The notes under the pieces are model-generated. The model did not search any database. It had not been told where the DNA came from and saw only the letters and a list, made by a program, of their open reading frames with translations. This document shows positions 30,944 through 62,084 of a DNA stretch of 64,000 bases, one piece after another. Source of the stretch: Candidatus Enterousia sp. (lineage in GTDB: Bacteria > Pseudomonadota > Alphaproteobacteria > Rs-D84); NCBI GenBank assembly GCA_045133095.1, contig JBGUTP010000016.1, positions 76,758 to 140,757 on the forward strand. The letters are read 5' to 3'. The translations under genes and the position numbers were made by a program. Numbering within the stretch: position 1 is the first letter of the stretch; each line of letters opens with the position of its first letter.

Positions 30944-30951
30944 TATAAAAA

Positions 30952-32586: not shown

Positions 32587-32588
32587 AG

Positions 32589-33659
32589 ATGAATAAATTG
32601 GAATTGTGGTATGCTAAATTAGTCTTTCGGTTAAATACTGAAAAACGTATGGCGATTTGCAGAAAATTGGCTTCGTTGTTGCGGAATGATTTTACGCTGA
32701 TTAATGCGTTGGAACGTTTAGAGATGATTGAATCAAAAAACGGTACAAAGCCAAATGAACCATACGCAATTGCTATGCGTGAATGGCAAAAAAGCCTGGA
32801 ACGAGGTATGAGTTTTTCAGATGCAACGCGTGGTTGGGTGCCACCAGAAGAAACACTGTTGGTGACATCAGGTAATTTGTCTAGTTTGGTTGTTGCACTT
32901 GAAAACGTCGGACGCGTCGTAGATGGAACACAGCGTATCAGACGTGCAATGACAACCGCAGTGGCGTATCCTTTGTTCTTGTTAGCGTTGACGTTCGGAA
33001 TCATTATTATGGTTGGGGTTTATCTGGTGCCGCCATTGGCAGAAGTTGCAGGGTCGCAAATTGTATGGCAGGGAACAGCCCGGTCTTTGATATGGGTGTC
33101 TGATATTTCAATAAAATACTGGTATTGGTTCTTGGTGGTTTTTGCAGGTGTCGTTGGGATTATATGGTTGTCTTTGCCAAGATGGTCCGGGCAGCTGAGG
33201 GCAAAATTTGATAAGTTGCCACCGTGGAGCGTTTATAAAATTCAGGTGTCAGTTGGGTGGCTGATGTCGTTGGCGGCAATGGTGAAAACAGGGGTTACAA
33301 TCCCAGATGCTATGCGTATGTTGGCAGATAATGCCAATCGATATCTAAGAAATATATTGGAATCTGCACTGAGGTTTATTGCTAATGGTGATAACTTGGG
33401 GGTGGCGTTGACACACACAAAGCGTAATTTCCCCGATGATGATATTATTGGCGATATTACTATTTACGCAGATATGAATGAATTTGATGATAATTTAAAC
33501 CAGGTCGCAAATGATTATCTTGAAGAGTCTGTACGTAAAATGGAAAAAATTTCTGATACTTTGAACAGTTTGGGGATTTTGCTGGTGTCCGCGATAATTG
33601 CGTGGGTGGTGCTGGGGACGTTCCAGATGCAAGACCAGATTACAAGTGCGCTGTCGTAG
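32589..33659 (+). CDS. GspF/PilC/TcpE-like inner-membrane platform protein
   Basis: A 356-aa protein with two cytoplasmic helical repeats and three TM segments. It carries the AYPLFLLALTFGIIIMVGVYLVPPL (AYPxxxL...P) signature of GspF-family proteins. Confidence 0.7.
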   Translation: MNKLELWYAKLVFRLNTEKRMAICRKLASLLRNDFTLINALERLEMIESKNGTKPNEPYAIAMREWQKSLERGMSFSDATRGWVPPEETLLVTSGNLSSLVVALENVGRVVDGTQRIRRAMTTAVAYPLFLLALTFGIIIMVGVYLVPPLAEVAGSQIVWQGTARSLIWVSDISIKYWYWFLVVFAGVVGIIWLSLPRWSGQLRAKFDKLPPWSVYKIQVSVGWLMSLAAMVKTGVTIPDAMRMLADNANRYLRNILESALRFIANGDNLGVALTHTKRNFPDDDIIGDITIYADMNEFDDNLNQVANDYLEESVRKMEKISDTLNSLGILLVSAIIAWVVLGTFQMQDQITSALS

Positions 33660-33665
33660 AAAAAC

Positions 33666-33750
33666 AAATCTAATGGCATATTTGCTTGTGGTCGGCGCGT
33701 TTATGTAACGGTCGGTACACTGCACTTGCCGACCAGGGCGCATCTATACC
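33666..33750. repeat. Diverged copy of the REP-like palindromic element
   Basis: The left end aaatctaatggcatat matches the aaatctaatggcgtatcta end of the 61.9-kb copies. The core hairpin ggtcggtacact..ccgacc is degenerate. Confidence 0.35.
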
Positions 33751-33754
33751 ATTA

Positions 33755-33775
33755 TTTTTGTTTTTTTTTTTTTTT
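33755..33775. repeat. Homopolymeric T tract (T5 G T15)
   Basis: Seen directly in the convergent intergenic region. Confidence 0.8.
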
Positions 33776-33800
33776 GTTGCTGGGGTATGTGTTATGCTGC

Positions 33801-39944: not shown

Positions 39945-40019
39945 GGCAGCGTAGCTCAGTGGTAGAGCAGAGGAATCATAATCCTTTGGTCGGGGGTCCG
40001 AATCCCTCCGCTGCTACCA
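39945..40019 (+). tRNA. tRNA with CAT anticodon (elongator Met or lysidine-Ile2)
   Basis: Cloverleaf with acceptor GGCAGCG/CGCTGCT (G1-U72), D-arm GCTCAGTGGTAGAGC, anticodon loop ATCATAA, T-arm GGGGGTCCGAATCCCTC and a CCA end. Confidence 0.85.
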
Positions 40020-40022
40020 AAG

Positions 40023-40057
40023 ATTCAACCCCGATTTATTCGGGGTTTAATTTTTGG
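40023..40057 (+). terminator. Terminator after tRNA-Met
   Basis: Hairpin aaccccgatttattcggggtt followed by taattttt. Confidence 0.5.
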
Positions 40058-40175
40058 TATAGTTGTGGCAGATAAGGACCCCAGGGTCCGACAAAAAAGC
40101 AGGTTTTGCAAGTGAAACGCGGCGAAACCGTTGCGATTTGGAAAGGGACCCGCACACAAAGTGTGTGGGAATACA

Positions 40176-40229
40176 CAATCGGCTGCGCTGCTACCAGAAT
40201 TCAAACCGCCCGTGTGGCGGTTGTTTTTT
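40176..40229 (+). repeat. Duplicated tRNA-Met 3' end (cgctgctacca) followed by a terminator hairpin
   Basis: An 11-nt exact match to the 3' end of tRNA-Met lies about 170 bp downstream. It is followed by aaccgcccgtgtggcggtt and T8. Confidence 0.4.
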
Positions 40230-40317
40230 TTGTATTATGACCTGGGTCCCGCGGGGATTCACCCACAAAAATCTTTAATTTTTGCGGGGGCCGAAAAAGC
40301 CACGGGATGATAAAGGA

Positions 40318-40346
40318 CATAAAAACACCGCCCGGGTGGGCGGTGG
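40318..40346. repeat. 29-bp direct repeat, left copy (cataaaaacaccgcccgggtgggcggtgg)
   Basis: Matches 41545-41573 at 28 of 29 positions. On the minus strand it works as the terminator of the cassette. Confidence 0.55.
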
Positions 40347-40360
40347 TGGGGTAATTTTGA

Positions 40361-40750
40361 CTATGTTTCAGTTTGCATGCCGTGCAGTTGGCAACAAAAA
40401 TCATGTATTATTTGTTTTGTGGCGGTGTATTGTTTATGTGGGTTTTGTTTAACAGTGCTTTGTTCTTGTATAAATCTATAGAATTCTAGTAATTCTTGAT
40501 ATCCAGTATCGCCAGATTCTAATATGTAACGATGGCGTGGTTCATATATAGTTAATATCATATTTCTGCCAAATCCATTTTCAACTTGTGCATATAATCC
40601 ATCACGGACAAGGGTGTCGAACCCGTCGTAGTACGCGATATCAAATAGTTTTTTTGTGTTCTGATAAACCGAAAAAAATTTTTTGTCTCTTTTTATGGAG
40701 ATTCCAGACTCTTTTAACTTTGTCTTTAATTCTGCAATTATTTCTTTCAT
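40361..40750 (-). CDS. Hypothetical protein (129 aa), possible immunity/partner protein
   Basis: A small acidic/aromatic protein lying immediately downstream of the 207-aa ORF. I recognise no family. Confidence 0.35.
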   Translation of the reverse strand: MKEIIAELKTKLKESGISIKRDKKFFSVYQNTKKLFDIAYYDGFDTLVRDGLYAQVENGFGRNMILTIYEPRHRYILESGDTGYQELLEFYRFIQEQSTVKQNPHKQYTATKQIIHDFCCQLHGMQTET

Positions 40751-40783
40751 TTTTTGCTTCTTTTTTCTGAAGTTTAGAGTTTT

Positions 40784-41407
40784 TTATTTTTGTGGTATTG
40801 CGGTTTGTATTAACAGACCACGATAGCCGTCAAGCAATGCGCCTAATTTTAGGCATGATTCCATTTCCGAACGTGTTAAGGTTGGCGTGCTTGTTCCCAT
40901 ATAAATGTTATTTGGGCGGATTATGCGACCTGTTTTTTTATCACGAACAATCAATTTATGTACGGTTGCAGGTGTGAAATCGCCACCATTTTTGCCAACA
41001 GTATCCGATTGTACAGGTGTTAATTGTGGATTTGATATTAGTTGTCCGCCGATGATTGTGCCACCCTGTGTTGATTTTTTTTGGTTGCGTGTGGTGTCAT
41101 TTAATATTTGTAAATGTTTTGGTGTTTCTGAATACGCATTTAAGTACAGATATGCGACCAATTCATATTTTTTAGACCAGCGCACATCATTGTCTATGGC
41201 TTTCTTGAGGTCTTGTGCCAATTTCTCGTCAGTCTGTTGTTTAGAATGACTTAATACGCCATAGGCGCTTTTAGTTGCAAAATTTAACTCACCACCATAT
41301 TGCGATTGGTTGTTGTCAAAATTGTACACGATAAAACAACCTTGGTCTGGGAACCAGTTGCCTAGCATATCATTTGTTAATGTTTCTTTTTTATATTTTT
41401 TGAACAT
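40784..41407 (-). CDS. Hypothetical protein (207 aa)
   Basis: A good ORF with no recognisable family. It has a Gly-rich central segment (GGTIIGGQLISNP) and a conserved-looking C-terminus. Confidence 0.35.
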   Translation of the reverse strand: MFKKYKKETLTNDMLGNWFPDQGCFIVYNFDNNQSQYGGELNFATKSAYGVLSHSKQQTDEKLAQDLKKAIDNDVRWSKKYELVAYLYLNAYSETPKHLQILNDTTRNQKKSTQGGTIIGGQLISNPQLTPVQSDTVGKNGGDFTPATVHKLIVRDKKTGRIIRPNNIYMGTSTPTLTRSEMESCLKLGALLDGYRGLLIQTAIPQK

Positions 41408-41544
41408 GCGTAATACCCTTCTTTTAGCAAAAAGGATATCACAAATGTTGTATTTGTCAATATCTTTTACAAGATGTGGTGTTTGTGTATTTGGTCTGAT
41501 TAACGCTTATGGGTTGTTTTACATATTTTAGATATAGTCCTGGG

Positions 41545-41573
41545 CATAAAAATACCGCCCGGGTGGGCGGTGG
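41545..41573. repeat. 29-bp direct repeat, right copy (cataaaaataccgcccgggtgggcggtgg)
   Basis: Direct repeat of 40318-40346. Here it is an orphan terminator-like hairpin with no upstream minus-strand gene. Confidence 0.55.
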
Positions 41574-41646
41574 GAAACTTGAACGGTTGACTTTTATTTG
41601 CATATCTTGGATAATAGGGGCAATTAAGTAAAAAAAGGAAAGGATT

Positions 41647-42144
41647 ATGCGGAAGTTCTTAGTTGCGTTGTTGGCGTTGATTCCAATGAATGTTATGGCA
41701 AATCCGGCATGTCCGGTGTGTACTATCGCGGTCGGGGCAGGGCTGGATATCGCACGACGTTTGGGCGTGCCGGACAGTATTGTTGGACTGTGGGCGGGGG
41801 CGTTGTTGACACTGCTGGGGTATTGGATGCTGAAATGGATGGATAAGAAAAACTGGCATTTCCGGGGTCGTGATACGATTGTTATTGTTTTGTCCGTCGC
41901 AATGATTGGGTTTGTGTATCTGGGGACGGTAAAGTATAACCCTGTGTCAATCTGTGGCGCGTTCGTTATGGACCCGGTTTTGTTCGGTACAATCTGTGGG
42001 GCGTTGATTTTTGTCGGAACCGGTAAATTATATCAATGGATGAAAAATAAAAACGGTGGACATGCGCACTTTCCCTTTGAAAAAGTAGTGTTGCCAGTTG
42101 CTGCGTTGGCGTTGGCTAGTTGGGCAATGATGTTGTGTTTCTAG
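41647..42144 (+). CDS. Small polytopic membrane protein, unknown
   Basis: Signal/TM-like N-terminus and 3-4 predicted TM segments. Confidence 0.4.
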   Translation: MRKFLVALLALIPMNVMANPACPVCTIAVGAGLDIARRLGVPDSIVGLWAGALLTLLGYWMLKWMDKKNWHFRGRDTIVIVLSVAMIGFVYLGTVKYNPVSICGAFVMDPVLFGTICGALIFVGTGKLYQWMKNKNGGHAHFPFEKVVLPVAALALASWAMMLCF

Positions 42145-42162: not shown

Positions 42163-42711
42163 ATGAAGAAAATTGAATCTGTTCAGGAATTTGTTGAAAA
42201 GTTAGATGCCGCAAAAAAAGTCAATCCAAAAGATTTGTCGTCCGACCAGGATTTGACAATCGGTATTATGAACCTGATTTCAATTGAAGAACATTTGATG
42301 TTTTCGGGCGCAAAAACCGGCAAGACAGAGTTTTATGACCTGATTAACGAAGTGCGCGAAATGCGTAAAAATGCTATGCTGAAAATCATCCCGGCATACG
42401 AAGGTGAAGTGTGGTGTATTTCAAAGCACTTGCTGGCGGCATCTATGCGTGTGTTTGAAGTGGGTACCAAGGCACTGGCCGCGGGGGATAATCAAACCGC
42501 ATACGATTTGTTTGACCAGTCTTATTCTCTTTATTGTATGTTCTGGGGCTTGAACATGGGGATGTTAACAGGTGAAAAAAAAGACCTGAAGCCATCTAAG
42601 AAATCTGCCCCCATCAAAGCCGCCACACCCGCACAAAAGCAGGAAGTTAAAGGTGGTATGGGTAAGTTAAAAAGTTGGGTTAGGAATGCCGTTAACTGTT
42701 GTATCGAGTAA
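42163..42711 (+). CDS. Hypothetical protein (182 aa)
   Basis: SD GGAGAAAAG is present. I recognise no family. The C-terminus is K/P/A-rich. Confidence 0.4.
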   Translation: MKKIESVQEFVEKLDAAKKVNPKDLSSDQDLTIGIMNLISIEEHLMFSGAKTGKTEFYDLINEVREMRKNAMLKIIPAYEGEVWCISKHLLAASMRVFEVGTKALAAGDNQTAYDLFDQSYSLYCMFWGLNMGMLTGEKKDLKPSKKSAPIKAATPAQKQEVKGGMGKLKSWVRNAVNCCIE

Positions 42712-42720
42712 AATAAATTA

Positions 42721-42960
42721 TAATAATTCATATACGAGCGGGGGCGACAACTCATGTAGCGTTAGTACACTACGTTGTCGCCCCCATCTCGTATCTAAAT
42801 CATTCTAATTTATTTTTAACGAGGCTTAATAATTCATCTACGAGTGGGGGCGCAACTCATGCGGCGTTAGTACACTACGTTGTCGCCCCCCATATTCGTA
42901 TCTAAATCATTCTAAAGAGTACACCGCGTTGTCGCCCCCCCATATCGGGTCTAAATCATT
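42721..42960. repeat. Array of 2.5 copies of a roughly 90-bp REP/MITE-like palindromic element
   Basis: Core atacgagCGGGGGCGACAACtcatgtagcgttagtacactacGTTGTCGCCCCCatctcgtat is a perfect 12-bp stem with nested inverted repeats. It is flanked by taataattcat...ctaaatcattctaa. Two full copies and one half copy are present. Confidence 0.8.
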
Positions 42961-42996
42961 TTTAAATATTGTTTGTTTGTGATATAATCTGGTGAT

Positions 42997-44181
42997 ATGG
43001 CACGAGATAAATATATTTCAATTAATAAAAATGTTAGTGGTTTTTCTTTTGCAAACCTGGGGTTGTTTACAGGGTTTGCAGATGGTATTTATAATGCGGT
43101 TTATTCGCTGGTTATATTAGAGATTTTTAAGTCGTCCGCAATTGTTGGTGTTTATGTGGCGATTTATTCGGTGTTCTGCTTTATCGTTGGATTGTTCGCA
43201 AATGAAATACTGCGCCAATTTTCCAAGGTTCGTGTGTTTTTCTTTGTGTTGCTGATGTTGGCGGCGTGTTACGCGATGATGAGTTTTTCAATCTTGCCAC
43301 GTACTTTTATTATTTTGGATTATACAACCGGAATAGCGGCGACTTTGGTTGGGGTTTTGATTCCGTTGTTTATGTCTGATTTTTCAAAAGATGTGGGAAT
43401 GGCACGTCTTAATTCGCGATATCATTTGTGGATAAATGTTGGGGCGTTGTTTGCACCAACTGTGGCGGTATTAATTGCGAATCATTTTGGAAATAGGGCG
43501 GCTTTCTTTGCGTCGGCGGTTATTTATTTCCTGGCGTGGATGTTGTTTAAATACTTTAGAATTGTTCAAGAAGATAAAAGAATTAAACCGGTTAATCCAA
43601 GAAAAACTTTTATCGGACTGTGGAAAAATACCATAGATTTTTTCAAGGTGCCGGGAATGCTGCGGGCATATTTGATAAATTTTGGATACTATTCGTTGCG
43701 GGCGATGCGTGTGTTGTATGTGCCAATTGTTGTAATCGAAAATGGTTTTGATAAAGGTGTTCTGGGGTGGGTTCTGACATTGGGAATTATTCCGTATCTG
43801 TTGCTAAGTGATGCAATGGCACGCGCCGTGCGCAGATATGGAAAAACAATTTGGTTGGTGTTGGGATTTGGTTCGTTCGCATTGTTGTCGGCGGCGGCAA
43901 CTGTTACAACAGGGGTGCCGTTGTTGGCAATCTTTGTAGCGTGGCAGGTTTCTGGGGCGTTGATGGAATCTGTGCATGATTTGTTGTTCTTTGATGGAAC
44001 CAAAAAATCACAGCAAACAAAATACTATGGGGTGTTCAGAACAAGTTCTAATTTACCTAATGTTTTGGCACCGATTTTGGGGGCTGCGATGATTGCAGGG
44101 TTTGGAATGACTGCTGCGGTGTGGGCGGTGACTGCAACCGTTGGTGCGTTAAGTGTTGGCGTTTTGATAACCAAAAAGTGA
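42997..44181 (+). CDS. MFS-type transporter (12 TM)
   Basis: A 394-aa protein with about 12 hydrophobic segments and a mid-protein break typical of MFS transporters. Confidence 0.55.
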   Translation: MARDKYISINKNVSGFSFANLGLFTGFADGIYNAVYSLVILEIFKSSAIVGVYVAIYSVFCFIVGLFANEILRQFSKVRVFFFVLLMLAACYAMMSFSILPRTFIILDYTTGIAATLVGVLIPLFMSDFSKDVGMARLNSRYHLWINVGALFAPTVAVLIANHFGNRAAFFASAVIYFLAWMLFKYFRIVQEDKRIKPVNPRKTFIGLWKNTIDFFKVPGMLRAYLINFGYYSLRAMRVLYVPIVVIENGFDKGVLGWVLTLGIIPYLLLSDAMARAVRRYGKTIWLVLGFGSFALLSAAATVTTGVPLLAIFVAWQVSGALMESVHDLLFFDGTKKSQQTKYYGVFRTSSNLPNVLAPILGAAMIAGFGMTAAVWAVTATVGALSVGVLITKK

Positions 44182-44240
44182 TACTTGCTTTTTAAGGTTT
44201 TTCTGTGTATGCTTTCCTTAAGAAATAAAGGGGAAATTGT

Positions 44241-45320
44241 ATGGCAAAAAAAGAAGCAGCAAAAGATAGTGGGCTGTTTGGAAAAAATCCAGCGTTGGAA
44301 TCTGCGTTGGCACAAATTCAAAAACAGTTTGGTAAAGAAGCCATTATGAAAATGGGTGATGGTTCACAGCAAAATATCGAAGCGATTTCATCGGGTTCGT
44401 TGGGGCTGGATATTGCGTTGGGAATTGGTGGTTATCCAAAGGGACGTATCGTTGAAATCTATGGACCAGAATCTTCGGGTAAGACAACGTTGGCGTTGCA
44501 TGCGGTTGCGGAATCTCAGAAAAAGGGTGGTACGTGTGCGTATATTGATGCAGAAAATGCACTGGACCCAAGTTATGCAAAAAAGTTAGGGGTGGATGTT
44601 GCTAACTTGATTATTTCACAGCCAGATTCCGGTGAACAGGCATTGGAAATCGCAGATACGCTGATTAAATCAGGCGCGGTTGATGTTGTCGTTATTGACA
44701 GTGTGGCGGCATTGGTGCCAAAGGCAGAATTAGAAGGTAATATTGGGGATTCGTTCGTTGGAACAACTGCACGTTTGATGTCGCAGTCGCTGAAAAAATT
44801 GGCGGGTTCGGTTTCACGCAGTAATACATTGCTTATCTTTATCAATCAAATTCGTATGAAGATTGGTGTGATGTTTGGAAACCCAGAAACAACATCAGGG
44901 GGCAATGCGTTAAAGTTCTATGCGTCGGTGCGTCTTGATATCCGTCGTACAGGACAAATTAAGGATAAAGAAAATATCATCGGTAATGAAACACGTGTCA
45001 AGGTTGTGAAAAATAAGGTCGCGCCACCTTTCCGTACAGTTGACTTTAAGATTATGTACGGCGAAGGTATTAGCCGTATCAGTGAAATCTTGGATATGGG
45101 CGTTAAATACGACTTGATTGAAAAGGCAGGCAGTTTCTATTCTTATAACAGTGAAAGAATGGGGCAGGGTGAAGCGAATGCGCGTCAATGGTTGAAGGAC
45201 CATCCAGAGGCGCAGGAAGAACTGCTGAATAAAATCATGGCGCGGGCATCGGGAATCGCCGAAGAAATGACGACCGGTCCGATTGATGATGAAGATGATG
45301 TGGCAGAAATTGTCGAATGA
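44241..45320 (+). CDS. recA: Recombinase RecA
   Basis: [12 protein letters not shown], loops L1/L2 and canonical RecA sequence throughout. Confidence 0.95.
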
Positions 45321-45375
45321 TTTTGTCCCCCAGTTTAGTTTCTGGGGGTAATTTGTTAAAAAAAAGGAAGAAAGT

Positions 45376-46272
45376 ATGAATGTACAACGTATGTGGGCAA
45401 TGACAAAAATAATCGTTCAGGGACATGTGTTAAACTGGTTCTGGCGTGACAGAAAACACAGACGCGAAGTGCGCAGCAAGGTCATAGAACGTGTAATCCC
45501 AAAATACTTTGAAAGATATTTGCCAGCCGCAGCCGCAGTAAAAGAACGCAAGGTCGTTAATAACGATAAAAACGACAAGATTTTTTCACTGTGGTTGCAA
45601 GGTGAAGAAAATGCACCAGAGTTGGTGAAGTCTTGTTTTCGCAGTGTGCGCAGACATTGTAAACAAGAATTGGTTGTTTTGGACGAAAAGACCGTGTTTG
45701 ATTATATTACTCTGCCAGAAGAAATTATGAAAAAGCGCAAAGCGGGTAAGATTTCACATGCGCACTTTGCGGATATTTGTCGGGTGGAATTGTTGTATAA
45801 TCATGGCGGGTATTGGCTGGATTCAACAGGGTTTGTGACCGAAGCCATTCCTGATTGGATTGAAAAAGAAGATTTCTTTGTTTATATGGCAGGGCAAAAG
45901 GTCGGCAGCCCATACAGTTATATGCAAAATTGTTTTATTCGTTCGCGAAAGGGGGCATATCTGCTGGATGCGTGGCGGGCGATGATGTTGGATTACTGGA
46001 TGCATGAAAACGGACCGTTTGATTATTTTATGCATCAATTGTTGTTCAAGACAATGGTTATGAATGATGAACGTGCAAAAAAACACTTTGCAAAAATGCC
46101 ACACGTTGACCAAGACCCGACACATGCACTGTGGTGGGATTGGCATGATAAGCCATACGATGAAAAAAAATTCCGTGAAGTAACAAGTGGGGCTTTCTTT
46201 CAAAAGACAACTTATCATCAGGCGAAAAATCCAAAGCCGGGTTCTGTGGCAGAAGCAATGTTGAAGATGTAA
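45376..46272 (+). CDS. Glycosyltransferase, GT32/Caps_synth-like (OCH1-type DXD sugar transferase)
   Basis: Motifs IFSLWLQGEENAP and HFADICRVELLYNHGGYWLDS are typical of the Gly_transf_sug/capsule synthesis family. Confidence 0.5.
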   Translation: MNVQRMWAMTKIIVQGHVLNWFWRDRKHRREVRSKVIERVIPKYFERYLPAAAAVKERKVVNNDKNDKIFSLWLQGEENAPELVKSCFRSVRRHCKQELVVLDEKTVFDYITLPEEIMKKRKAGKISHAHFADICRVELLYNHGGYWLDSTGFVTEAIPDWIEKEDFFVYMAGQKVGSPYSYMQNCFIRSRKGAYLLDAWRAMMLDYWMHENGPFDYFMHQLLFKTMVMNDERAKKHFAKMPHVDQDPTHALWWDWHDKPYDEKKFREVTSGAFFQKTTYHQAKNPKPGSVAEAMLKM

Positions 46273-46285
46273 AAAAGGATTTTCT

Positions 46286-47059
46286 ATGCCAGTGGTGTCA
46301 GTCATTATTCCTGTGTATAAGGTGGAAAAATATCTGCGACGTTGCCTGGACAGTTTAATCGCCCAGACTTTTGCAGATTGGCAGGCAATTTGTATCGATG
46401 ATGGCAGCCCAGATAGGTCGCCGGCGATACTGGATGAATATGCCGCACGTGATGCAAGAATTAAGGTTATTCACAGGGCAAATGGTGGGGTGTCGTCTGC
46501 GCGAAATCTGGGAATAGAAAATGCAAGTGGAAATTATATTCATTTCTTGGATGCAGATGATTGGATTGACCCAGAATATTATCAGGCAATGGTAACGGTT
46601 GCCACGGATTCAGATGCAGATATGGTAGTGTCTGGGTTCGTCAGTGATAATAAATATACTAAACCTATTGTTTATCGTGATGTTAAATTAAAACGTAAGA
46701 TTGCCGATAAGTTGCGGTTGACATATGCTTTGACTGATTCTTATGTGTGGCGGTATTTGTTTAAAACAGATTTTGTGCGTACAAAAAAATTATTGTTTGA
46801 TACAAATTTAATCGCACAGGAAGATACTTTGTTTGTGTTAAACGCAATTGCAGATGCGAATGCAATTGTGACCGTGCCGTGGGTTAATTATCATTATATG
46901 TTTAATGAAAATTCAGCCTTGAATAATCGTGACGCGGCGCATCATGCAAAGGTTAAAGCGCAATATAAAATAGGTAAACAATATAGACGTGATTTCGCAA
47001 AACAACACGGTGTGATAAGACTGTGGAGATTGCGTAAAATATTAAACTTATTCAGATAA
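46286..47059 (+). CDS. Family 2 glycosyltransferase
   Basis: VSVIIPVYKVEKYLRRCLDSLIAQTF...DDGSPD...DADD is the GT2 N-terminal signature. Confidence 0.75.
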   Translation: MPVVSVIIPVYKVEKYLRRCLDSLIAQTFADWQAICIDDGSPDRSPAILDEYAARDARIKVIHRANGGVSSARNLGIENASGNYIHFLDADDWIDPEYYQAMVTVATDSDADMVVSGFVSDNKYTKPIVYRDVKLKRKIADKLRLTYALTDSYVWRYLFKTDFVRTKKLLFDTNLIAQEDTLFVLNAIADANAIVTVPWVNYHYMFNENSALNNRDAAHHAKVKAQYKIGKQYRRDFAKQHGVIRLWRLRKILNLFR

Positions 47060-47074
47060 ACATAGGGGGATATA

Positions 47075-48103
47075 ATGCCAGCAATTTCTGTAATTATTCC
47101 AATTTATAATGTCGAAAAGTATCTGCGCAGATGTTTGGATAGTGTAAAAAATCAAACATTTACAGACTGGGAGGCGATTTGTGTAAATGACGGCAGCCCT
47201 GATAACTGTGCAGAGATATTGGCAGAATATGCCGCCAAGGACGCTAGATTTAAAATAGTTAATAAGGAAAATGGTGGACTGTCCGATGCGCGAAATGCAG
47301 GTATGAAGGTCGCAACAGGTGAATATATTTTATACCTGGATAGCGATGATTTTATCCATCCGCAAACAATGGAAATTACACATGTGCTGGCGGTGCGTGA
47401 TGGGTCCGATATGGTGGCGTTTACATACGACAGAATTTATCGACCGCAACTGATGATACGGCATTATCTGAAAATGGATACAGATAACGTTGTGCCAAGG
47501 AGGTTGAATAAAAAATATAAACTGTCAAATGTGCCAACGTTGGTAACTGATGATGTTTATGAGTATGCAACAGAAAAAACACATAATCGGTGGAGTAAGA
47601 AAAAAAAGTGGATGATTAAACATTGTCAGGTGTGGAAGCATTTGTATAAACGTGAACTGATTGCAGATATTCCGTTTATCAAAGGGATTTTGTTCGAGGA
47701 CTTTCCATGGTGGAGTCAGGTTATGATGTCTAATCCACGTGTGACAATTACTAATTTGCCTTTGTATTTCTATATACCGAATTTTGGTGGGATTGTATTA
47801 AGTGCCAAGCAATTGCGCATTATGAAAAGTTTGTGCGTAGGTTTAAAAGATGCATATACGCGATATGTTCATGCAGCAACGCCATATCAAATGAAAAAAT
47901 GGTCGGAAAATTTTCAGTGGTATTTTGTCGCCAAGGCGTTTGGAAAGATTAAATATCTTGATGGAAATGATGATGTAGATGCGGCACGAGAATGTTTGCG
48001 CGAACTGGAACATATGGGGGCGTTAGATAAGCCACCGTATAAGTGGGCAAAAAAACTGCGCAGTCAGATTTGTGCTTTTATTAAAACATGTAGGGTTGAA
48101 TAG
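47075..48103 (+). CDS. Family 2 glycosyltransferase (paralog)
   Basis: ISVIIPIYNVEKYLRRCLDSVKNQTF...NDGSPD...DSDD. It is a paralog of the preceding gene. Confidence 0.75.
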   Translation: MPAISVIIPIYNVEKYLRRCLDSVKNQTFTDWEAICVNDGSPDNCAEILAEYAAKDARFKIVNKENGGLSDARNAGMKVATGEYILYLDSDDFIHPQTMEITHVLAVRDGSDMVAFTYDRIYRPQLMIRHYLKMDTDNVVPRRLNKKYKLSNVPTLVTDDVYEYATEKTHNRWSKKKKWMIKHCQVWKHLYKRELIADIPFIKGILFEDFPWWSQVMMSNPRVTITNLPLYFYIPNFGGIVLSAKQLRIMKSLCVGLKDAYTRYVHAATPYQMKKWSENFQWYFVAKAFGKIKYLDGNDDVDAARECLRELEHMGALDKPPYKWAKKLRSQICAFIKTCRVE

Positions 48104-48150
48104 TAGGTACGTGGTTAGTGAATGTGTGCGGCAAATGCCGCACATTTTTA

Positions 48151-49164: not shown

Positions 49165-49168
49165 AATT

Positions 49169-50856: not shown

Positions 50857-50941
50857 ATCTTATAATTTACATGTTTTTTCTTGTTTTTGCAACTAATCAC
50901 TTTATAGCCAAAAAGAACACGCCACAGGTGTGGCGTGCGGA

Positions 50942-55040: not shown

Positions 55041-55940
55041 ATGTATGATGTTATTATCTTGGGGTCGGGACCCGCAGGATTAACCGCAGCGTTATATACA
55101 GCGCGCGCAAATAAAAAAACTGTCGTTCTGGGCGGTGATAGATTAGGCGGACAGACCGCAGGAATTGCCGTGTTGGAAAATTATCCAGGATGGGCAGGCA
55201 GTGGTTTAGAGTTAGCGCAGTTTATGAAAAATCAAGCAGAAACATTTGGTGCGACTGTAGAATTTGTAAGTGCAAAAAATATTTCAGGTGATGCGGAAAA
55301 TGGATTCGTGGTTGCGTGTGATAATGGTGCAGAATACAAAGGGCGCGCAATTATTATCGCAACAGGTGCCAGTCCACGTAAATTAGAAATCGAAGGCGCA
55401 CGTGAATTGATGGGGCGCGGTGTTTCGTACTGTGCAACGTGTGATGGATTCTTTTACAGTGGAAAAACAGTTATGGTTATGGGGGGCGGAAACAGTGCGT
55501 TGAATGATGCGTTGTATTTGGCTGACTTGGCAAAAAATGTAAAAATAGTTTATCGCAAGGGGGCGTTTACGCGGGCAGAAGCCGTATTGCGCGAACGTGT
55601 CGCGGCGCGTGATAATATTGAATGCCTGTTCAATACAGACTTGGCAAAAGTCGCCCTGAAGCCTGATTCCGAAGATGGAGAATTAATCGTAACAACCACC
55701 GCCGGTCAGGAAATTGTTGTTGATGGGTTGTTCGTTGCAATTGGACATGAAGCCAATACTGATTTCTTGTCCGAAGATGTTAAACGTGATAATCTGGGGC
55801 GTTTGGCACCGTCTGCAATGCCCACAGGCATCTTTGTTGCAGGTGATGTTCATTCAGAACTGAAAATGCAAATCGCAACAGCCGTAGGAACAGGGTGTAG
55901 CGCAGGCATGGATGCCATAGCGTACCTAAATAAAATCTAA
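55041..55940 (+). CDS. trxB: Thioredoxin reductase
   Basis: GSGPAG FAD motif, the CATCDG redox-active disulfide and GGGNSA NADPH motif. Confidence 0.9.
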   Translation: MYDVIILGSGPAGLTAALYTARANKKTVVLGGDRLGGQTAGIAVLENYPGWAGSGLELAQFMKNQAETFGATVEFVSAKNISGDAENGFVVACDNGAEYKGRAIIIATGASPRKLEIEGARELMGRGVSYCATCDGFFYSGKTVMVMGGGNSALNDALYLADLAKNVKIVYRKGAFTRAEAVLRERVAARDNIECLFNTDLAKVALKPDSEDGELIVTTTAGQEIVVDGLFVAIGHEANTDFLSEDVKRDNLGRLAPSAMPTGIFVAGDVHSELKMQIATAVGTGCSAGMDAIAYLNKI

Positions 55941-55966
55941 TGATGTATCTATGGGCGGGGGGGCGC
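55930..55966. repeat. Truncated (left-half) copy of the REP-like element, overlapping the trxB stop codon
   Basis: aaatctaatgatgtatctatgggcggggggg matches the left end of the 61.9-kb copies (aaatctaatggcgtatctacgggcggggg). Confidence 0.5.
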
Positions 55967-55977
55967 TAAATATTTCC

Positions 55978-56005
55978 TTGCATTTTATTTCATTTGGTAT
56001 ATAAT
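55978..56005 (+). promoter_or_regulatory. Sigma70-like promoter for tRNA-Gly(-Tyr)
   Basis: TTGCAT, a 16-nt spacer and TATAAT, about 20 nt upstream of tRNA-Gly. Confidence 0.45.
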
Positions 56006-56025: not shown

Positions 56026-56100
56026 GCGGGCATAGTACAAAGGCTAGTATGCAAGCCTTCCAAGCTTGAAATGCGGGTTCGATTCCCGCTGCCCGCACCA
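56026..56100 (+). tRNA. tRNA-Gly (TCC)
   Basis: Acceptor GCGGGCA/TGCCCGC, anticodon loop CTTCCAA, T-arm GCGGGTTCGATTCCCGC and a CCA end. Confidence 0.9.
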
Positions 56101-56214
56101 AAAAATTGTGAAAAATGGAATCTGCTTGATTTTGATTCCGGTCGTGTACGCTTTGTACACTCACCTTTATCAAAATCGTCGCATCTTCTCGTTTTTGACA
56201 ATTTTTAGGAGATT

Positions 56215-59365: not shown

Positions 59366-61862
59366 AAATATTTTTTGTGCAACAAATCCCGCAAAAATGG
59401 CAGATGCACTGTGGCAGGTTATGGTGCAGTCGGGCGCGAATGTGGCAGATATGCTGATTTTTCTGCCCAGTCGGCGTGCTGTGCGCAGCGTGGAAAAAAT
59501 GATTGTGGAAAAATCAGGGGGGGCTGCGATTTTGCCACGATTGGTTGCATTGGGGGAAGGGGCAGATGAAGAAAAAGATTTAGATTGCAATGATGATGAA
59601 AATGTAATTTCTAATACAGAAAGAATAGTGGTGTTGGCGCGACTGTTGGCGGCGGACGCAAGTGTGGGTGGGTTGTCTGTGGCGTTGGGGGTGGCGCGCG
59701 ATTTGGTGCGTATGCAAGATTATCTTGAAAACGAAGGAATTAATGCAAAAAATATCGATTGGGAAAAAATTGTCGATGAAAAATATGCAGCGCACTTTCA
59801 AAGTAAGGCAAAAATATTAAAGATTTTATCCGATTTTATGCCAATGTATGCAAATGGCAGAATAACTGCCACCGCGGCAAGAAATCGTGATATAAGGGCG
59901 TGGCGTAATCAGTTGAATAACTATGCGCTGGTTATAGTGTGTGCGTCAACTGCCAGTGTGCCGGCAACTGCTGATTTAATGCAGGCGATTGCAGAATTGC
60001 CGCATGGGCGAATTATTTTGTCCGGGAAAATAAGTGGCAGGGTTTCTGATTTTGAACTAAATACCAATCCGTACAATTCAGAATATAAGTTTTTAACCAG
60101 GTTGGAACTGGGGGCGGATGATGTTGTTCCAATAGATGTGGGGGCGTCTGTTATTGATTTTTTGAATTTTTCGTTCGGAAATGATTGTGATATGGCGCAG
60201 ACCGGGGGACGGATTGATAATTGCAAATTGATAGAATGTAAAAGTGAAGCAATAGAAGCAAATGCCGTCGCAGAAATTGCACAAAGGGCGATAGATGAAA
60301 ATAAGTCTGTGTTGGTAATAACGCCTGATGCCGCCGGAAATCAACGTATAGCGGCGGCGTTGGCATTAAGAAAAATTGATGCGGATTTTTCTGGTGGCGT
60401 TTCGGGGGCAATGACAAATACTGGGCGGGCAATATTAAATCTGATTGATGGATGGATTGAAAAATCAAATTCTGAGTTCGATGATATTTATGCCGCACAA
60501 GGTGGTGATTTGTTTAATACGCTTGGTGTGATTGTCGATAAATACGCAGATAGATTTGTGCCGGAATTTGATATTTATGCCCCAGAAAGCCGACAAATAT
60601 GGGTCGCAATTAAGGAAGTGTCAGATGCGCTTAATGCCGCAGGTGTCAGGTTGAATTTAACCGAGGCACGTGTCTTCATAGCGGATGCTGTTGCCGGGGT
60701 TTCTGTGCGTGGGCAGATGAATGACAGTGCCAAGGTCGTTGTGTTGGGAACAATTGAATCGCGTATGCAAACCGCAGATGTTGTAATATTGACAGGATTG
60801 AACGAAGGAATGTTCCCCGCACGCGGCTATGAAAATGCGTGGTTGCCACGTGCATTGGCGGATAAAATAGGATTGCCGTCACCAGACAGAAAGGTGTCTT
60901 TGCAGGCGTTGGACTTTATGAATTTGTCGTGTGGGGCGGATGTCTATTGGTTGCGCAGTTTGGTTTCAGGTGGTGTGCAGACAACCGAATCTCGCTTTTT
61001 ATCACGTGTTGTTGCGCGACGTGGGGTCATTAATCGTGATGTGGCGCGTTCTGTTTTGGGGGCAATAGAAGAACGTGATAACGTACCGTCAAAACCGCTG
61101 CAAAATTTGCCAGCCGTGGCGGGAAATGATTATTCAGATGTCTATGTGACGGAATTGGAATTGCTGATACATAATCCATACGCGTTTTATGTGCGACATA
61201 TTTTGCGATTGAACGTGTTAAAGGATTATTGGGAATTGCCAGATGCGCGTGACTTTGGAACCTTGGTTCATAAAACCATAGAAGAAGCCAAAAGTTGGAA
61301 TGAAAATGAATTAGTGGCAGATATGGACCGGCGGGCGTTGGAAATCTTGGGGCAGGGAAGTGTGATTTTCCATTTCTGGCATAAGAGATTTGTCGAAATT
61401 GCCCCAGTGATAGTAAAAGAATTTTCACAACTGATTGATTCAAGCCCGGAAATAGAAGGGGCGGTTAATATCGCAGGACGAAATGTGCGTGCAAAAGCAG
61501 ACCGGGTTTGGGATGGCGGTGTTTTGGATATCAAAACAGGCGAGGCGCCGTCAAAGTCGCAACTGAAAGATGGCAATATGCCACAATTGCCATTAGAAGC
61601 GTTTATATTACAGCAAGGCGGATTTCCAATTCAGACAACGCAATTGTCGCGTACGCCGGTTATGCGCTTTTTGCAATTGAAAAATAATGACGCGCGCATT
61701 GTAAAATTTGACCAAAATCAGACCCAAGATTATATTCGTGCCGCCGTTGATAAGGTTACCTCCTTGTTCAACATTTATTCCGCAGGTGACGCAGAATATA
61801 AATATCACGAGACAAGCGACCAGAAATATAAACAGTATGATGACCTGGCGCGTGTTAAATAA
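59352..61862 (+). CDS. addB: AddB-like PD-(D/E)XK nuclease (inactivated-helicase N-domain + RecB nuclease C-domain)
   Basis: The C-terminal motifs GRNVRAKADRVW...LDIKTG and FGTLVHKTIEE are typical of the RecB-family nuclease domain. I see no Walker A motif, which is consistent with alphaproteobacterial AddB. Confidence 0.55.
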   Translation: MASNKNIFCATNPAKMADALWQVMVQSGANVADMLIFLPSRRAVRSVEKMIVEKSGGAAILPRLVALGEGADEEKDLDCNDDENVISNTERIVVLARLLAADASVGGLSVALGVARDLVRMQDYLENEGINAKNIDWEKIVDEKYAAHFQSKAKILKILSDFMPMYANGRITATAARNRDIRAWRNQLNNYALVIVCASTASVPATADLMQAIAELPHGRIILSGKISGRVSDFELNTNPYNSEYKFLTRLELGADDVVPIDVGASVIDFLNFSFGNDCDMAQTGGRIDNCKLIECKSEAIEANAVAEIAQRAIDENKSVLVITPDAAGNQRIAAALALRKIDADFSGGVSGAMTNTGRAILNLIDGWIEKSNSEFDDIYAAQGGDLFNTLGVIVDKYADRFVPEFDIYAPESRQIWVAIKEVSDALNAAGVRLNLTEARVFIADAVAGVSVRGQMNDSAKVVVLGTIESRMQTADVVILTGLNEGMFPARGYENAWLPRALADKIGLPSPDRKVSLQALDFMNLSCGADVYWLRSLVSGGVQTTESRFLSRVVARRGVINRDVARSVLGAIEERDNVPSKPLQNLPAVAGNDYSDVYVTELELLIHNPYAFYVRHILRLNVLKDYWELPDARDFGTLVHKTIEEAKSWNENELVADMDRRALEILGQGSVIFHFWHKRFVEIAPVIVKEFSQLIDSSPEIEGAVNIAGRNVRAKADRVWDGGVLDIKTGEAPSKSQLKDGNMPQLPLEAFILQQGGFPIQTTQLSRTPVMRFLQLKNNDARIVKFDQNQTQDYIRAAVDKVTSLFNIYSAGDAEYKYHETSDQKYKQYDDLARVK

Positions 61863-62060
61863 AATCTAATGGCGTATCTACGGGCGGGGGCGACAACTCA
61901 TGTAGCGTTAGTACACTACGTTGTCGCCCCCATCCCGTATTTGCACCATTATCTTTCATTTAATAAAATCTAATGGCGTGTCTGTGGGTGGGTGTGATAA
62001 CTCATGCGGCGTTAGTACACTACGTTGTTGTCCCCATATTCGTATCTGCACCATTATCTT
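61861..62060. repeat. Two tandem copies of the roughly 95-bp REP/MITE-like palindromic element
   Basis: Copy A has a perfect 12-bp stem GGGGGCGACAAC..GTTGTCGCCCCC. Copy B is mutated (GGGTGTGATAAC..GTTGTTGTCCCC). Flanks are aaatctaatggcg...gcaccattatcttt. Copy A starts at the addB-like stop codon. Confidence 0.8.
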
Positions 62061-62084
62061 TTATAATGCACTGCAAAGGTGGGG

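What the first reader, a model, noticed from the sequence alone, without database searches (positions are those of the whole stretch)
42721..42960. Novel REP/MITE-like palindromic element family (roughly 90 bp; perfect 12-bp GC stem plus nested inverted repeats), 2.5 tandem copies
Seen in sequence: the core atacgag-CGGGGGCGACAAC-tcatgtagcgttagtacactac-GTTGTCGCCCCC-atctcgtat can fold into a long imperfect hairpin. Copies here are flanked by taataattcat / ctaaatcattctaa. The same core appears with different flanks at 61861-62060 (two copies), 55930-55966 (a half copy) and 33666-33750 (a diverged copy). The family is therefore dispersed and always intergenic at gene 3' ends in this window. Such elements can act as terminators, mRNA stabilisers, recombination hot spots or miniature transposable elements.
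Basis: seen in the sequence. Interest (0 to 1): 0.55.

Follow-up and report, generated by a model that had tools for sequence, protein, structure and literature searches.

The report
Stop-codon-hugging hairpin repeat family
This is a real, previously uncatalogued family of about 105-base hairpin-forming repeats that sit right on the stop codons of genes in a group of uncultured gut-type Alphaproteobacteria, always in one orientation; it is a new example of the known class of small palindromic intergenic repeats, with some unusual habits.

Summary
The window holds eight copies or fragments at five sites.

The unit is about 105 nt, not 90. The same family occurs in six other species-level genomes of the clade (AddB 66-70% identical), at about one site per 8 kb.

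Each unit has three nested parts:
- A/T-rich outer arms of two types
- a 16-18 bp middle stem that differs between copies but stays complementary (12 of 12 pairs covary)
- a conserved 24-nt apical module

All copies point the same way. They start within about 10 nt of the upstream gene's stop codon and often supply that codon. Array length varies between strains (1 to 3.5 units). Resident copies evolve more slowly than synonymous sites.

I found no Rfam match, no transposase in the window and no clear target-site duplication. The best reading is a MITE/ERIC-like repeat family whose resident copies serve as 3'-end hairpins. The mobilising enzyme is unknown. Only about 187 kb could be surveyed.

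The parts
42709..42816 (+). Copy A. Full unit with type I outer arms (AAAATAAATTATAATAATTCAT ... TATCTAAATCATTCTAATTTATTTT), middle stem CGAGCGGGGGCGACAA and apical module at 42751-42774. It begins 2 nt inside the TAA stop of the 182-aa ORF (42163-42711).
   Evidence: Covariance-model hit of 113.6 bits. Fold -44.9 kcal/mol, z = -8.8. Stop-codon junction shown.
42819..42916 (+). Copy B. Second unit of the array, with a shortened left arm, a 1-nt deletion in the left stem and the apical variant CTCATGCGGCG.
   Evidence: Direct repeats D3/D4 at 89-92% identity, spacing 105-106 nt. Alignments. Weaker fold, -27.3 kcal/mol.
42917..42972 (+). Copy C. A 3' half unit that starts inside the apical module (AGTACACCGCG) and carries the right stem and right arm. 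It is followed by the promoter-like site (TG-extended TATAAT) of the MFS gene that starts at 42997.
   Evidence: Direct repeat D2. The same right end closes the single-copy allele in strains L024/L025. Promoter-like site at 42961-42988.
61855..61962 (+). Copy D. Full unit with type II outer arms (AAATAAAATCTAATGGCGTATCTA ... TATTTGCACCATTATCTTTCATTT). Its core is identical to A over 50 nt. The TAA stop of the AddB-like gene (59352-61862) lies inside its left end.
   Evidence: Covariance-model hit of 121.7 bits. Fold -51.4 kcal/mol on the + strand and -63.3 on the - strand. Junction shown.
61960..62066 (+). Copy E. Second unit of the array, decaying, with C-to-T changes in both stem halves. It ends 19 nt before the stop of the convergent Exo_endo_phos gene (62085-62912, - strand).
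   Evidence: Alignments. The fold is no better than shuffles (z = -0.7). A strain with a single hybrid D/E copy exists (L021).
33659..33765 (+). Copy F. Diverged full unit with type II arms, a different but complementary middle stem (TGGTCGGC/GCCGACCA) and the apical variant TTTATGTAACGGTCGGTACACTGC. It is followed by a run of 15 T and starts at the TAG stop of the T2SSF gene (32589-33659).
   Evidence: Covariance-model hit of 77.7 bits. Fold -42.3 kcal/mol, z = -3.4. Strain variants.
55926..55996 (+). Copy G. A 5' stub consisting of a type II left arm plus GGGCGGGGGGGCG, then truncated against the tRNA-Gly promoter. Its left arm encodes the last three codons (N-K-I) and the TAA stop of the thioredoxin-reductase-like ORF (55041-55940).
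   Evidence: Covariance-model hit of 26.4 bits. Sequence. Conserved tRNA promoter in relatives.
56100..56206 (+). A diverged full-length unit that fills the spacer between tRNA-Gly (56026-56100) and tRNA-Tyr (56215-56301). Its middle stem is TTGATTTTGAT/ATCAAAATCG and its apical region is GTGTACGCTTTGTACAC.
   Evidence: Covariance-model hit of 33.5 bits, E = 5e-6. tRNA coordinates. The same spacer is 6 nt in L035 and 30 nt in L033.
42751..42774 (+). Apical module CTCATGTAGCGTTAGTACACTACG, the most conserved part of the family. The consensus across species is CTCATGTAGCKTYTGTACACTRCG. It is identical at 61897-61920.
   Evidence: Fuzzy-pattern census. Invariant columns. On the - strand it forms a 7-bp hairpin with a tetraloop.

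Best explanation
This is a family of about 105-nt non-coding, quasi-palindromic repeat elements. It belongs to the class of small bacterial intergenic repeats that includes MITEs and ERIC, and it is confined, as far as I could see, to a clade of uncultured gut-type Alphaproteobacteria.

Shown:
- Each unit is one long hairpin made of three nested modules. The outer arms are A/T-rich and come in two sequence types. The 16-18 bp middle stem differs in sequence from copy to copy but remains complementary. The 24-nt apical module is conserved.
- Units begin at, or a few bases from, the stop codon of a gene on the G-rich (leading) strand, and often supply that stop codon.
- All copies lie in one orientation.
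- Units occur singly or in head-to-tail arrays, and array length changes between strains.
- Resident copies are conserved between species well above synonymous sites.

Inferred:
- The family spreads, or has spread, as a non-autonomous element. It would be copied to new stop-codon-proximal sites by a strand-specific mechanism, driven by a trans-acting enzyme that reads the apical module and/or the arms. Copies are then reshuffled by gene conversion and unequal crossing-over.
- Once resident, a unit is co-transcribed with the upstream gene and acts as a 3'-end RNA hairpin. That hairpin would be a barrier to 3' exonucleases and a terminator or insulator between convergent genes. This role would explain why resident copies are kept and why several sites have a unit in place of an ordinary terminator.
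- The uniform orientation places the less stable of the two possible hairpins on the strand that is exposed during lagging-strand synthesis. This would limit palindrome-induced breakage.
For: Dispersal:
- Five sites in the window, and 23-24 sites in about 187 kb from seven genomes. No copy lies in the minus orientation; every minus-strand hit is the lower-scoring mirror of a plus-strand hit.

Structure:
- Across 23 distinct copies, 92% of cells are paired, against 38-45% when partners are slid by 1-3 columns.
- 25 of 40 pairs show compensatory double changes. The inner helix covaries at 12 of 12 pairs and is 96% paired. No shuffle of 500 reaches the observed values.

Duplicative spread and reshuffling:
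- Two L036 copies at different loci share identical middle stems and arms.
- The cores of A and D are identical over 50 nt although their arm types differ. The type I arm of A matches that of L033_5894, whose stem is different.
- Mixed arrays exist, such as type I followed by type II after SecB in L033.
- Occupied and empty orthologous sites both occur. The SecB 3' end is occupied in L033 and empty in L036. The AMP-ligase 3' end has an ordinary terminator in L033 and a unit in L038, L040 and L041. The tRNA spacer holds H in the window but is 6 nt in L035.

Strain polymorphism:
- 1, 1.5, 2, 2.5 or 3.5 units at the A-C locus, and 1 versus 2 units at D/E.

Position and orientation:
- The stop codon lies within or next to the left end in 18 of 19 protein-gene junctions.
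- At 9 occupied convergent junctions the unit is always attached to the plus-strand gene (gene tables).

Constraint on resident copies (element identity versus codon third positions of the flanking genes):
- 90% versus 47-59%
- 97% versus 74%
- 93% versus 66%
One of these orthologous pairs also shows an in-situ compensatory C-G to T-A change.

Terminator replacement:
- Several convergent junctions contain nothing but the unit (window D/E and F; L038 15035).

Strand asymmetry:
- The minus strand folds more stably in 23 of 23 copies, with a mean of -52.3 versus -41.3 kcal/mol.
- All loci have GC skew of +0.17 to +0.19 on the plus strand.

Not a known RNA family.
Against: - No target-site duplication can be seen. 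No intraspecific empty allele was found, so transposition itself is not shown.
- No transposase, RAYT or integrase lies among the window's ORFs. Whole genomes could not be searched.
- Copy H sits inside a tRNA-Gly/tRNA-Tyr unit, so at least that copy cannot be an efficient terminator in the sense direction.
- The consensus terminator scan does not call any unit.
- The strand that folds better is antisense to the mRNA. This is unexpected if the selected structure is the sense RNA.
- Wobble intermediates are rare compared with double changes. This fits DNA-level or templated maintenance as well as it fits RNA selection.
- Some sites keep an ordinary terminator next to the unit (L033 6075-6109).
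- Copies are related by descent, so the counts are not independent events.
Confidence: 0.6

Rival explanations
1. The family is a host-evolved cis-acting RNA signal and is not mobile. It would be a 3'-UTR or intercistronic hairpin whose conserved apical loop is the binding or cleavage site of a dedicated RNA-binding protein or RNase, for example in processing, decay control or protein-assisted termination. The copies would have arisen by occasional duplication and be kept by selection at each gene.
For: - Resident copies are conserved well above synonymous sites, including copy-specific stems.
- The apical module is nearly invariant across species whose AddB proteins are 66-78% identical.
- One copy lies inside a tRNA operon, where processing sites are expected.
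- Covariation runs along the whole stem.
Against: - The better-folding strand is the antisense one in 23 of 23 copies.
- G-U intermediates are scarce.
- The same site carries unrelated arm types and stems in sister species. Identical copies sit at unrelated loci in one genome, and heterogeneous head-to-tail arrays exist. All of these point to turnover by copying rather than site-by-site evolution.
- Orientation follows the replication strand at convergent junctions, not simply the nearest gene.
Confidence: 0.2
2. The element acts in single-stranded DNA. It would be mobilised, or recombined, by an HUH/Y1-type or other strand-specific enzyme that recognises the minus-strand hairpin, in the way IS200/IS605 ends, REP/RAYT pairs or integron attC sites are recognised. 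Any RNA effect would be incidental.
For: - All copies have one orientation relative to the G-rich strand.
- Hairpin quality is strand-specific: the minus strand is better in 23 of 23 copies, and the apical module forms a clean 7-bp hairpin only on the minus strand.
- No target-site duplication is visible.
- New units abut old ones head to tail.
- Strand-specific targeting of the lagging-strand template is established for IS608 and ISDra2 (abstract of PMC6006769).
Against: - The strand that folds better is the template of the leading strand, not of the lagging strand as in the IS608 paradigm. This is an inference from the GC skew.
- The element is a single long palindrome rather than two subterminal hairpins.
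- No Y1 or RAYT gene lies in the 64 kb window.
- Purifying selection on unique resident copies is not explained by mobility alone.
Confidence: 0.12
3. The family is a set of ordinary bidirectional intrinsic terminators that merely look alike, or a local duplication or assembly artefact.
For: - The base of the hairpin is an A-tract paired with a T-tract, as in the genome's ordinary terminators (window 17128-17176 and 56301-56341; L033 families D2/D3).
- Short contigs often break inside the unit.
Against: - Ordinary terminators in these genomes are 30-40 nt with 6-8 bp stems and share no loop sequence.
- The units share a 24-nt apical module and 20-25 nt arms across seven genomes and independent assemblies from ENA, NCBI and Logan.
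- The terminator scan does not call them.
Confidence: 0.03

Closest known systems
ERIC / IRU elements of Enterobacteriaceae and Vibrio. These are 127-bp imperfect palindromes, listed among the bacterial MITEs in PMC3733652. The further properties given here are from my own knowledge.
   Same: - About 100-130 nt, with the whole unit forming one long imperfect hairpin.
- Intergenic but inside transcription units.
- Strongly conserved between species.
- No transposase known.
- Proposed to act on mRNA stability when transcribed.
   Different: - No sequence similarity.
- ERIC occurs in both orientations and is not tied to stop codons.
- ERIC lacks a hypervariable but complementary middle stem under a fixed apical module.
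Correia / NEMIS elements of Neisseria. These are MITEs (PMC3733652 background). The details given here are from my own knowledge.
   Same: - Size of 100-150 bp with terminal inverted repeats.
- Hundreds of copies close to genes.
- Co-transcribed.
- A conserved central site in addition to conserved ends.
- Hairpin RNA processed by RNase III.
   Different: - Correia elements have a TA target duplication and occur in either orientation.
- Here no duplication is seen and orientation is uniform.
- The sequences are unrelated.
REP / BIME and REPINs with RAYT transposases (PMC3733652, PMC3116915).
   Same: - Extragenic, mostly downstream of genes between unidirectional or convergent ORFs.
- Form large hairpins in single-stranded DNA or mRNA.
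- Occur in clusters and mosaics.
- Persist for long periods as within-genome populations.
- A GTAG...CTAC motif is present in the apical module.
   Different: - REP units are 20-40 bp palindromes with an unpaired GTAG or CGTC tag, and a REPIN is a doublet of such units.
- Here the arms do not fold on their own, and GTAG is paired with CTAC at the tip.
- The most conserved part is the 'spacer' (the apex), not the arms.
- No RAYT gene was seen.
Bidirectional intrinsic terminators.
   Same: - A hairpin flanked by an A-tract and a T-tract at gene 3' ends.
- Units are the only structure in several convergent gaps, and they replace an ordinary terminator at the AMP-ligase site.
   Different: - The stem is about 45 bp with internal loops and a 22-nt apex, not 5-15 bp with a 3-8 nt loop.
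- The sequence is shared between sites and species.
- One copy lies within a tRNA operon.
- The terminator scan does not call the units.
IS200/IS605-type single-strand elements and their ORF-less derivatives (PATEs), and integron attC sites.
   Same: - Strand-specific hairpins.
- No target duplication.
- Orientation linked to replication.
- Structure more conserved than sequence in part of the site.
   Different: - Those elements carry two subterminal hairpins (IS200/IS605) or conserved R/L boxes at the base with a variable tip (attC).
- Here a single palindrome has a conserved tip and a conserved base.
- No Y1 transposase or integrase lies nearby.

Membership tests
MITE (generic) | Size of 70-300 bp with no coding capacity. 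| tested here: met
   The unit is 105-108 nt. The reading frames across it are not conserved between copies: stem length shifts the frame, and type I arms lack the ATG.
MITE (generic) | Terminal inverted repeats of 15-30 bp. | tested here: met
   The outer arms are inverted repeats of about 22-25 nt and come in two types. They pair in 90% of cells (helix 1).
MITE (generic) | Target-site duplication flanking each copy. | tested here: inconclusive
   No direct repeat of 2 nt or more is visible at the 20 junctions listed. The ends are A/T-rich and merge with the flanks, and no empty allele within a species was available.
MITE (generic) | A related autonomous IS with the same ends that encodes the transposase. 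| not testable with these tools
   None was found in the 64 kb window or in the fetched loci (gene tables).
MITE (generic) | Many dispersed copies per genome. | tested here: met
   23-24 sites in about 187 kb, which is about one per 8 kb. A genome-wide number would be an extrapolation.
REP (GTAG/CGTC-tagged) and BIME | A unit that is a 20-40 bp palindrome. | tested here: not met
   The unit is about 105 nt. Left or right halves alone do not fold better than shuffles (z = -0.85 to +0.5).
REP (GTAG/CGTC-tagged) and BIME | An unpaired GTAG or CGTC tetranucleotide at one end of the palindrome (PMC3733652). | tested here: not met
   GTAG occurs only inside the apical module, where it pairs with CTAC. 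CGTC is present in the apex of some species but not in the window's copies.
REPIN / RAYT system | Two inverted REP units plus a spacer forming the hairpin, and a linked RAYT (Y1 transposase) gene. | tested here: not met
   The arms are not REPs. Conservation is highest in the apex, not in the arms. No Y1_Tnp domain lies in the window. Absence from the rest of the genome was not testable.
Intrinsic (Rho-independent) terminator | A short G+C-rich stem with a 3-8 nt loop, followed immediately by a U-run. | tested here: not met
   None of the units is reported by the scan of 42500-62400, while ordinary terminators are. The GC stem is separated from the T-rich end by about 30 nt of A/U-rich stem. 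Copy F does carry a T15 run.
Any Rfam family | A score at or above the family's gathering threshold. | tested here: not met
   Only 5 tRNAs pass in the window. The permissive search of D/E gives only noise, with E above 1.
Integron attC | Conserved R''/R' core sites (RYYYAAC...GTTRRRY) at the base, a variable tip, arrays of gene cassettes and a nearby integrase. | tested here: not met
   ACAAC/GTTGT occurs next to the apex, not at the base, and only in some copies. The flanking genes are housekeeping genes. There is no integrase.

The most novel reading that the evidence does not exclude
The units would not be ordinary MITEs. They would be a distinct kind of strand-polar hairpin module that is installed at the stop codons of leading-strand genes by a single-strand-specific enzyme recognising the conserved apical module.

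The module would bring its own stop codons and a terminator-like hairpin. Its middle stem would be kept perfectly complementary by hairpin-templated copying rather than by slow compensatory mutation.

The host would then retain these modules as insulators between genes. Together these points would account for four observations: the absolute orientation bias, the antisense-strand folding advantage, the scarcity of wobble intermediates, and purifying selection on resident copies.
Probability: 0.15. Interest if true: 0.7.

Novelty: new member of a known kind. Interest (0 to 1): 0.5.

Why it matters
- **A new repeat family in an unstudied group.** Small palindromic repeats are among the least understood parts of bacterial genomes, and almost nothing is known about them in uncultured gut Alphaproteobacteria.
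- **A test case for an open question.** The family combines features usually seen separately: high density, conservation across a clade, absolute strand polarity, fusion with stop codons, a protein-sized recognition module at the tip, and clear purifying selection on resident copies. That makes it useful for asking whether such repeats are parasites, domesticated terminators, or both.
- **Practical consequences.** The units break metagenome assemblies. They also generate spurious gene calls, such as the 93-aa and 144-aa ORFs at 61.9-62.4 kb and a 104-aa called gene in L035. They alter the C-termini of real proteins. The array length is a ready-made strain marker.

Tried and rejected
1. **Exact-match scans of public collections.** I scanned GTDB species genomes, JGI metagenomes and IMG/VR with the 18-mer GTTAGTACACYRCGTTGT. 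These gave only chance hits. The 18-mer proved specific to the window's species, because relatives have TCTGTACAC or TTTGTACAC.
2. **Peptide search.** I searched the protein database with a concatenation of the peptides encoded by the open frames across the unit, hoping to catch spurious ORFs at other sites. Nothing scored.
3. **Failed look-ups.** Two look-ups found nothing because the ORF starts I chose are not the called ones. The look-up for the G locus returned only the same sample.
4. **Apical module inserted into a native terminator loop.** I tested whether the apical module is a small insert in the loop of pre-existing terminators, so that the variable stems would be native terminator stems. 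At the AMP-ligase site the ordinary terminator of L033 (CCCGCC/GGCGGG) is unrelated to the stems of the units in L038, L040 and L041. Stem 10-mers do not recur nearby, except at L033 12491. Rejected as a general rule.
5. **Coding potential.** Rejected. The frames are not conserved.
6. **REP doublet (REPIN).** Rejected. The arms do not self-fold.
7. **Plasmid relatives.** None found.
8. **Contig breaks as evidence of high copy number.** Short contigs break inside the unit, but the known copies A and D already share 50 nt. That is longer than typical assembly k-mers, so the breaks prove nothing further.
Full report
**1. The observation**

- The 12-nt stem GGGGGCGACAAC/GTTGTCGCCCCC occurs six times in the window, against 0.31 expected.
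- Copy A folds at -44.9 kcal/mol (z = -8.8) and copy D at -51.4 kcal/mol (z = -7.8).
- The array at 42.7 kb is indeed two full units plus a 3' half unit.
- A covariance model built from clean copies recovers the diverged copy F (33659-33765) and the stub G (55926-55996).
- The model also finds an unnoticed diverged unit, H (56100-56206), which fills the spacer between tRNA-Gly and tRNA-Tyr.
- The unit is about 105-107 nt.

**2. Host and neighbourhood**

The window is chromosomal and full of housekeeping genes. These include PheST, L20, MreC, PBP2, RodA, TopA, DnaG, GyrB, RecA, SerRS and an AddB-like nuclease, plus type IV secretion and pilus genes (gene tables).
- The AddB-like protein has a 99% match in an ENA metagenome. 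Otherwise it matches at 70% or less, to MAGs labelled only 'Alphaproteobacteria bacterium'.
- G+C is 42%. GC skew is strongly positive on the plus strand (0.18 overall), so the plus strand is the leading strand.
- No ORF in the window has a transposase, Y1/RAYT or integrase domain.

**3. Distribution**

My exact 18-mer scans of GTDB genomes, JGI metagenomes and IMG/VR found only chance hits. The 18-mer I chose turned out to be species-specific. Fetching DNA around AddB orthologues then showed the family in every species-level relative examined:

| Locus | Sites | Units |
|---|---|---|
| L033 | 4 | 5 |
| L035 | 3 | 7 |
| L036 | 2 | 3 |
| L038 | 5 | - |
| L039 | 1 additional | - |
| L040 | 2 | - |
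| L041 | 2 | - |

- With the window's 5 sites this gives 23-24 sites in about 187 kb, or one per 8 kb.
- These AddB proteins are 66-78% identical to each other and to the window's, so the family spans a deep clade.
- Only these patches could be surveyed. A per-genome figure of a few hundred is an extrapolation.

**4. Anatomy**

Aligning copies on the apex shows three nested modules.
- **Outer arms.** These are 20-25 nt and come in two types, both conserved across species.
  - Type I is AAAATAAATTATAATAATTCATMTA ... TATCTAAATCATTCTAATTTATTTT.
  - Type II is AAATAAAAYCTAATGGCRTATCTA ... TATCTRYACCATTATCTTTTATTTT.
- **Middle stem.** This is 16-18 bp and can be entirely different between copies, yet it stays complementary. 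Examples are CGGGCGGGGGCGACAA, AAAACAATTCGGGCAT, AAAACAAAACCGACAA, CACACAAACCCGACAT and GTTGCGATTTGAACAAC. Some are 16/16 or 18/18 perfect.
- **Apical module.** The 24-nt consensus is CTCATGTAGCKTYTGTACACTRCG, with ATGTA and GTACACT almost invariant.

On 23 distinct copies, 92% of cells pair, against 38-45% when partners are slid. Of 40 pairs, 25 show compensatory double changes. The inner helix covaries at 12 of 12 pairs and is 96% paired. No shuffle of 500 reaches these values (smaller set). Single-sided (wobble) changes are rare: about 15 cells, against 172 double changes.

**5. Position and orientation**

- Every unit begins within about 10 nt of the stop codon of the upstream plus-strand gene.
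- In many cases the TAA lies inside the conserved left end AAATAAAATCTAATGG. In copy G the element encodes the last three codons and the stop of the thioredoxin-reductase-like ORF.
- All units are in the plus orientation. All minus-strand model hits are lower-scoring mirror images.
- At the nine occupied convergent junctions, the unit is always attached to the plus-strand gene. The junctions are not fully independent. This makes the bias follow the replication strand rather than simply the nearest gene.

**6. Dynamics**

- At the A-C locus, strains of the window's species carry 1, 1.5, 2, 2.5 or 3.5 units. At D/E they carry 1 or 2. The single units are left/right hybrids of the array members, which is the signature of unequal recombination.
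- Modules reassort.
  - A and D share an identical 50-nt core under different arm types.
  - The arm of A matches that of L033_5894, which has a different stem.
- Arrays can be heterogeneous. L033 has a type I unit followed by a type II unit after SecB.
- Two L036 units at different loci are identical.
- Orthologous sites can be occupied, empty, or occupied by different variants.
  - The SecB 3' end is occupied in L033 and empty in L036.
  - The AMP-ligase 3' end has an ordinary terminator in L033 and units in L038, L040 and L041.
  - The AddB 3' end carries five different variants across species, and none in L040.
  - The tRNA spacer is 6 nt in L035 and 30 nt in L033, but 114 nt with H in the window.
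- No target-site duplication is visible.

**7. Constraint on resident copies**

Where a unit is clearly orthologous between species, it is far better conserved than synonymous sites of the flanking genes:

| Copy and species pair | Element identity | Codon third positions |
|---|---|---|
| AddB 3' copy, L033 vs L038 | 77/86 (90%) | 47-59% |
| YebC 3' copy, L033 vs L040 | 104/107 (97%) | 74% |
| AMP-ligase 3' copy, L038 vs L040 | 100/107 (93%) | 66% |

The AddB 3' pair also shows one in-situ compensatory C-G to T-A change. These copies have unique stems, so gene conversion from other copies cannot explain their conservation. They are under purifying selection.

**8. Which strand folds**

- The minus strand, which is antisense to the upstream gene, folds more stably in 23 of 23 well-preserved copies. 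The means are -52.3 and -41.3 kcal/mol.
- Both the arms and the apex contribute.
- The apical module forms a clean 7-bp hairpin with a tetraloop only on the minus strand.
- Positions that are A·C on the plus strand, and therefore G·U or G·T on the minus strand, outnumber the reverse by 34 to 20.
- This runs against the expected C-to-T bias of the G-rich strand.
- It could mean that the selected or recognised hairpin is the minus strand.
- It could instead mean that the observed orientation keeps the weaker hairpin on the strand exposed during lagging-strand synthesis. That would reduce the known instability of long palindromes (SbcCD, as discussed in PMC3733652). This step is inference.

**9. 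Function**

- Ordinary terminators in these genomes are short G+C hairpins between A- and T-tracts. The consensus terminator scan does not call the units.
- Several convergent gene pairs nevertheless have nothing but a unit between them (window D/E and F; L038 15035-15141).
- At the AMP-ligase site, a unit stands where a sister species has an ordinary terminator.
- Copy H lies inside a tRNA-Gly/tRNA-Tyr unit that has one upstream promoter and one downstream terminator. At least that diverged copy must therefore be read through.
- The most economical reading is a co-transcribed 3'-end or intercistronic hairpin. It would act as an exonuclease barrier, a partial or bidirectional terminator, and possibly a processing site.
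- The conserved apex would serve either mobilisation or a binding protein.

**10. Comparison with known families**

- Rfam has no match.
- By the definitions in PMC3733652, the element fits a MITE in size, inverted-repeat ends, lack of coding capacity and location. It lacks a demonstrable target duplication and a partner IS.
- It is not a REP or a REPIN.
  - The halves do not fold alone.
  - There is no unpaired GTAG or CGTC tag.
  - Conservation peaks in the 'spacer' (the apex).
- It works most like ERIC and Correia elements. Those are long transcribed hairpins conserved across species. This comparison rests on my own knowledge, beyond their listing as MITEs. It differs from them in three ways: absolute polarity, fusion with stop codons, and a variable middle stem under a fixed apex.
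- Resemblances to IS200/IS605-type single-strand elements are functional leads only. They consist of strand specificity, the absence of a duplication and the link to replication (PMC6006769 abstract).

**11. Verdict**

It is a new family within a known kind of element, with several features that deserve follow-up.

Not shown:
- the act of mobility
- the enzyme
- the genome-wide copy number
- which strand or molecule carries the selected structure

Noticed in passing
window 39945-41650; compare L022 5031-9485, L023 6459-9485, L024 6877-9485 and L027 1-2312: The stretch between the PagL-like gene / tRNA-Met (39945-40019) and the 165-aa ORF carries different genes in different strains. The cargo includes a KAP NTPase with DUF805, a Gp49/HTH toxin-antitoxin pair, DUF6994, and several ORFs with no Pfam domain. 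This looks like a tRNA-adjacent integration hot spot.
   Followed up: partly
L036 4984-5134: Between tRNA-Gly and tRNA-Tyr, about 100 nt of unrelated DNA is bracketed by a direct repeat of the tRNA-Gly 3' end (TTCCCGCTGCCCGCACCA). This is the signature of an insertion into the tRNA 3' end. It occupies the same spacer that holds copy H in the window.
   Followed up: no
L033 12470-12575 and L038 12518-12600: The AddB 3' unit of these two species has the apical module but none of the standard outer arms. In L033 both halves of its stem recur just downstream as a second small hairpin (TTGTTCAAAT ... TTGCGATTTGAAC). I have no explanation for this.
   Followed up: partly
window 33766-33780; L024 about 1399-1406; L023 about 975-985: The T-run after copy F varies in length between strains: 15, 8 and 6 T. 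The L023 allele has also lost about 11 nt of the right stem.
   Followed up: partly
window 42961-43000: The MFS gene's ATG (42997) lies only about 8 nt after a TG-extended TATAAT box (42983-42988). This suggests a leaderless or nearly leaderless mRNA.
   Followed up: no
window 61921-62202 and 61973-62407; L035 12526-12840: Open reading frames of 93, 144 and 104 aa run through the repeat units. The L035 one is a called gene in the public record. They are most likely spurious.
   Followed up: partly
window 26529-26585: An A-rich tandem repeat (period 26, 2.2 copies) lies at the 3' end of the DUF374 ORF (25782-26588), where that ORF overlaps the start of lpxK. It would encode a lysine-rich tail.
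   Followed up: no
window 10000-48000: GC skew is unusually strong and sustained (0.2-0.3 in 2-kb windows), and nearly all genes lie on the plus strand. The relatives show the same skew (0.17-0.19 over 22 kb).
   Followed up: partly
window 19472-22194 and 29023-33659: VirB3/VirB4-like type IV secretion genes and a T2SSE/T2SSF/PilO-like pilus cluster sit among core housekeeping genes.
   Followed up: no
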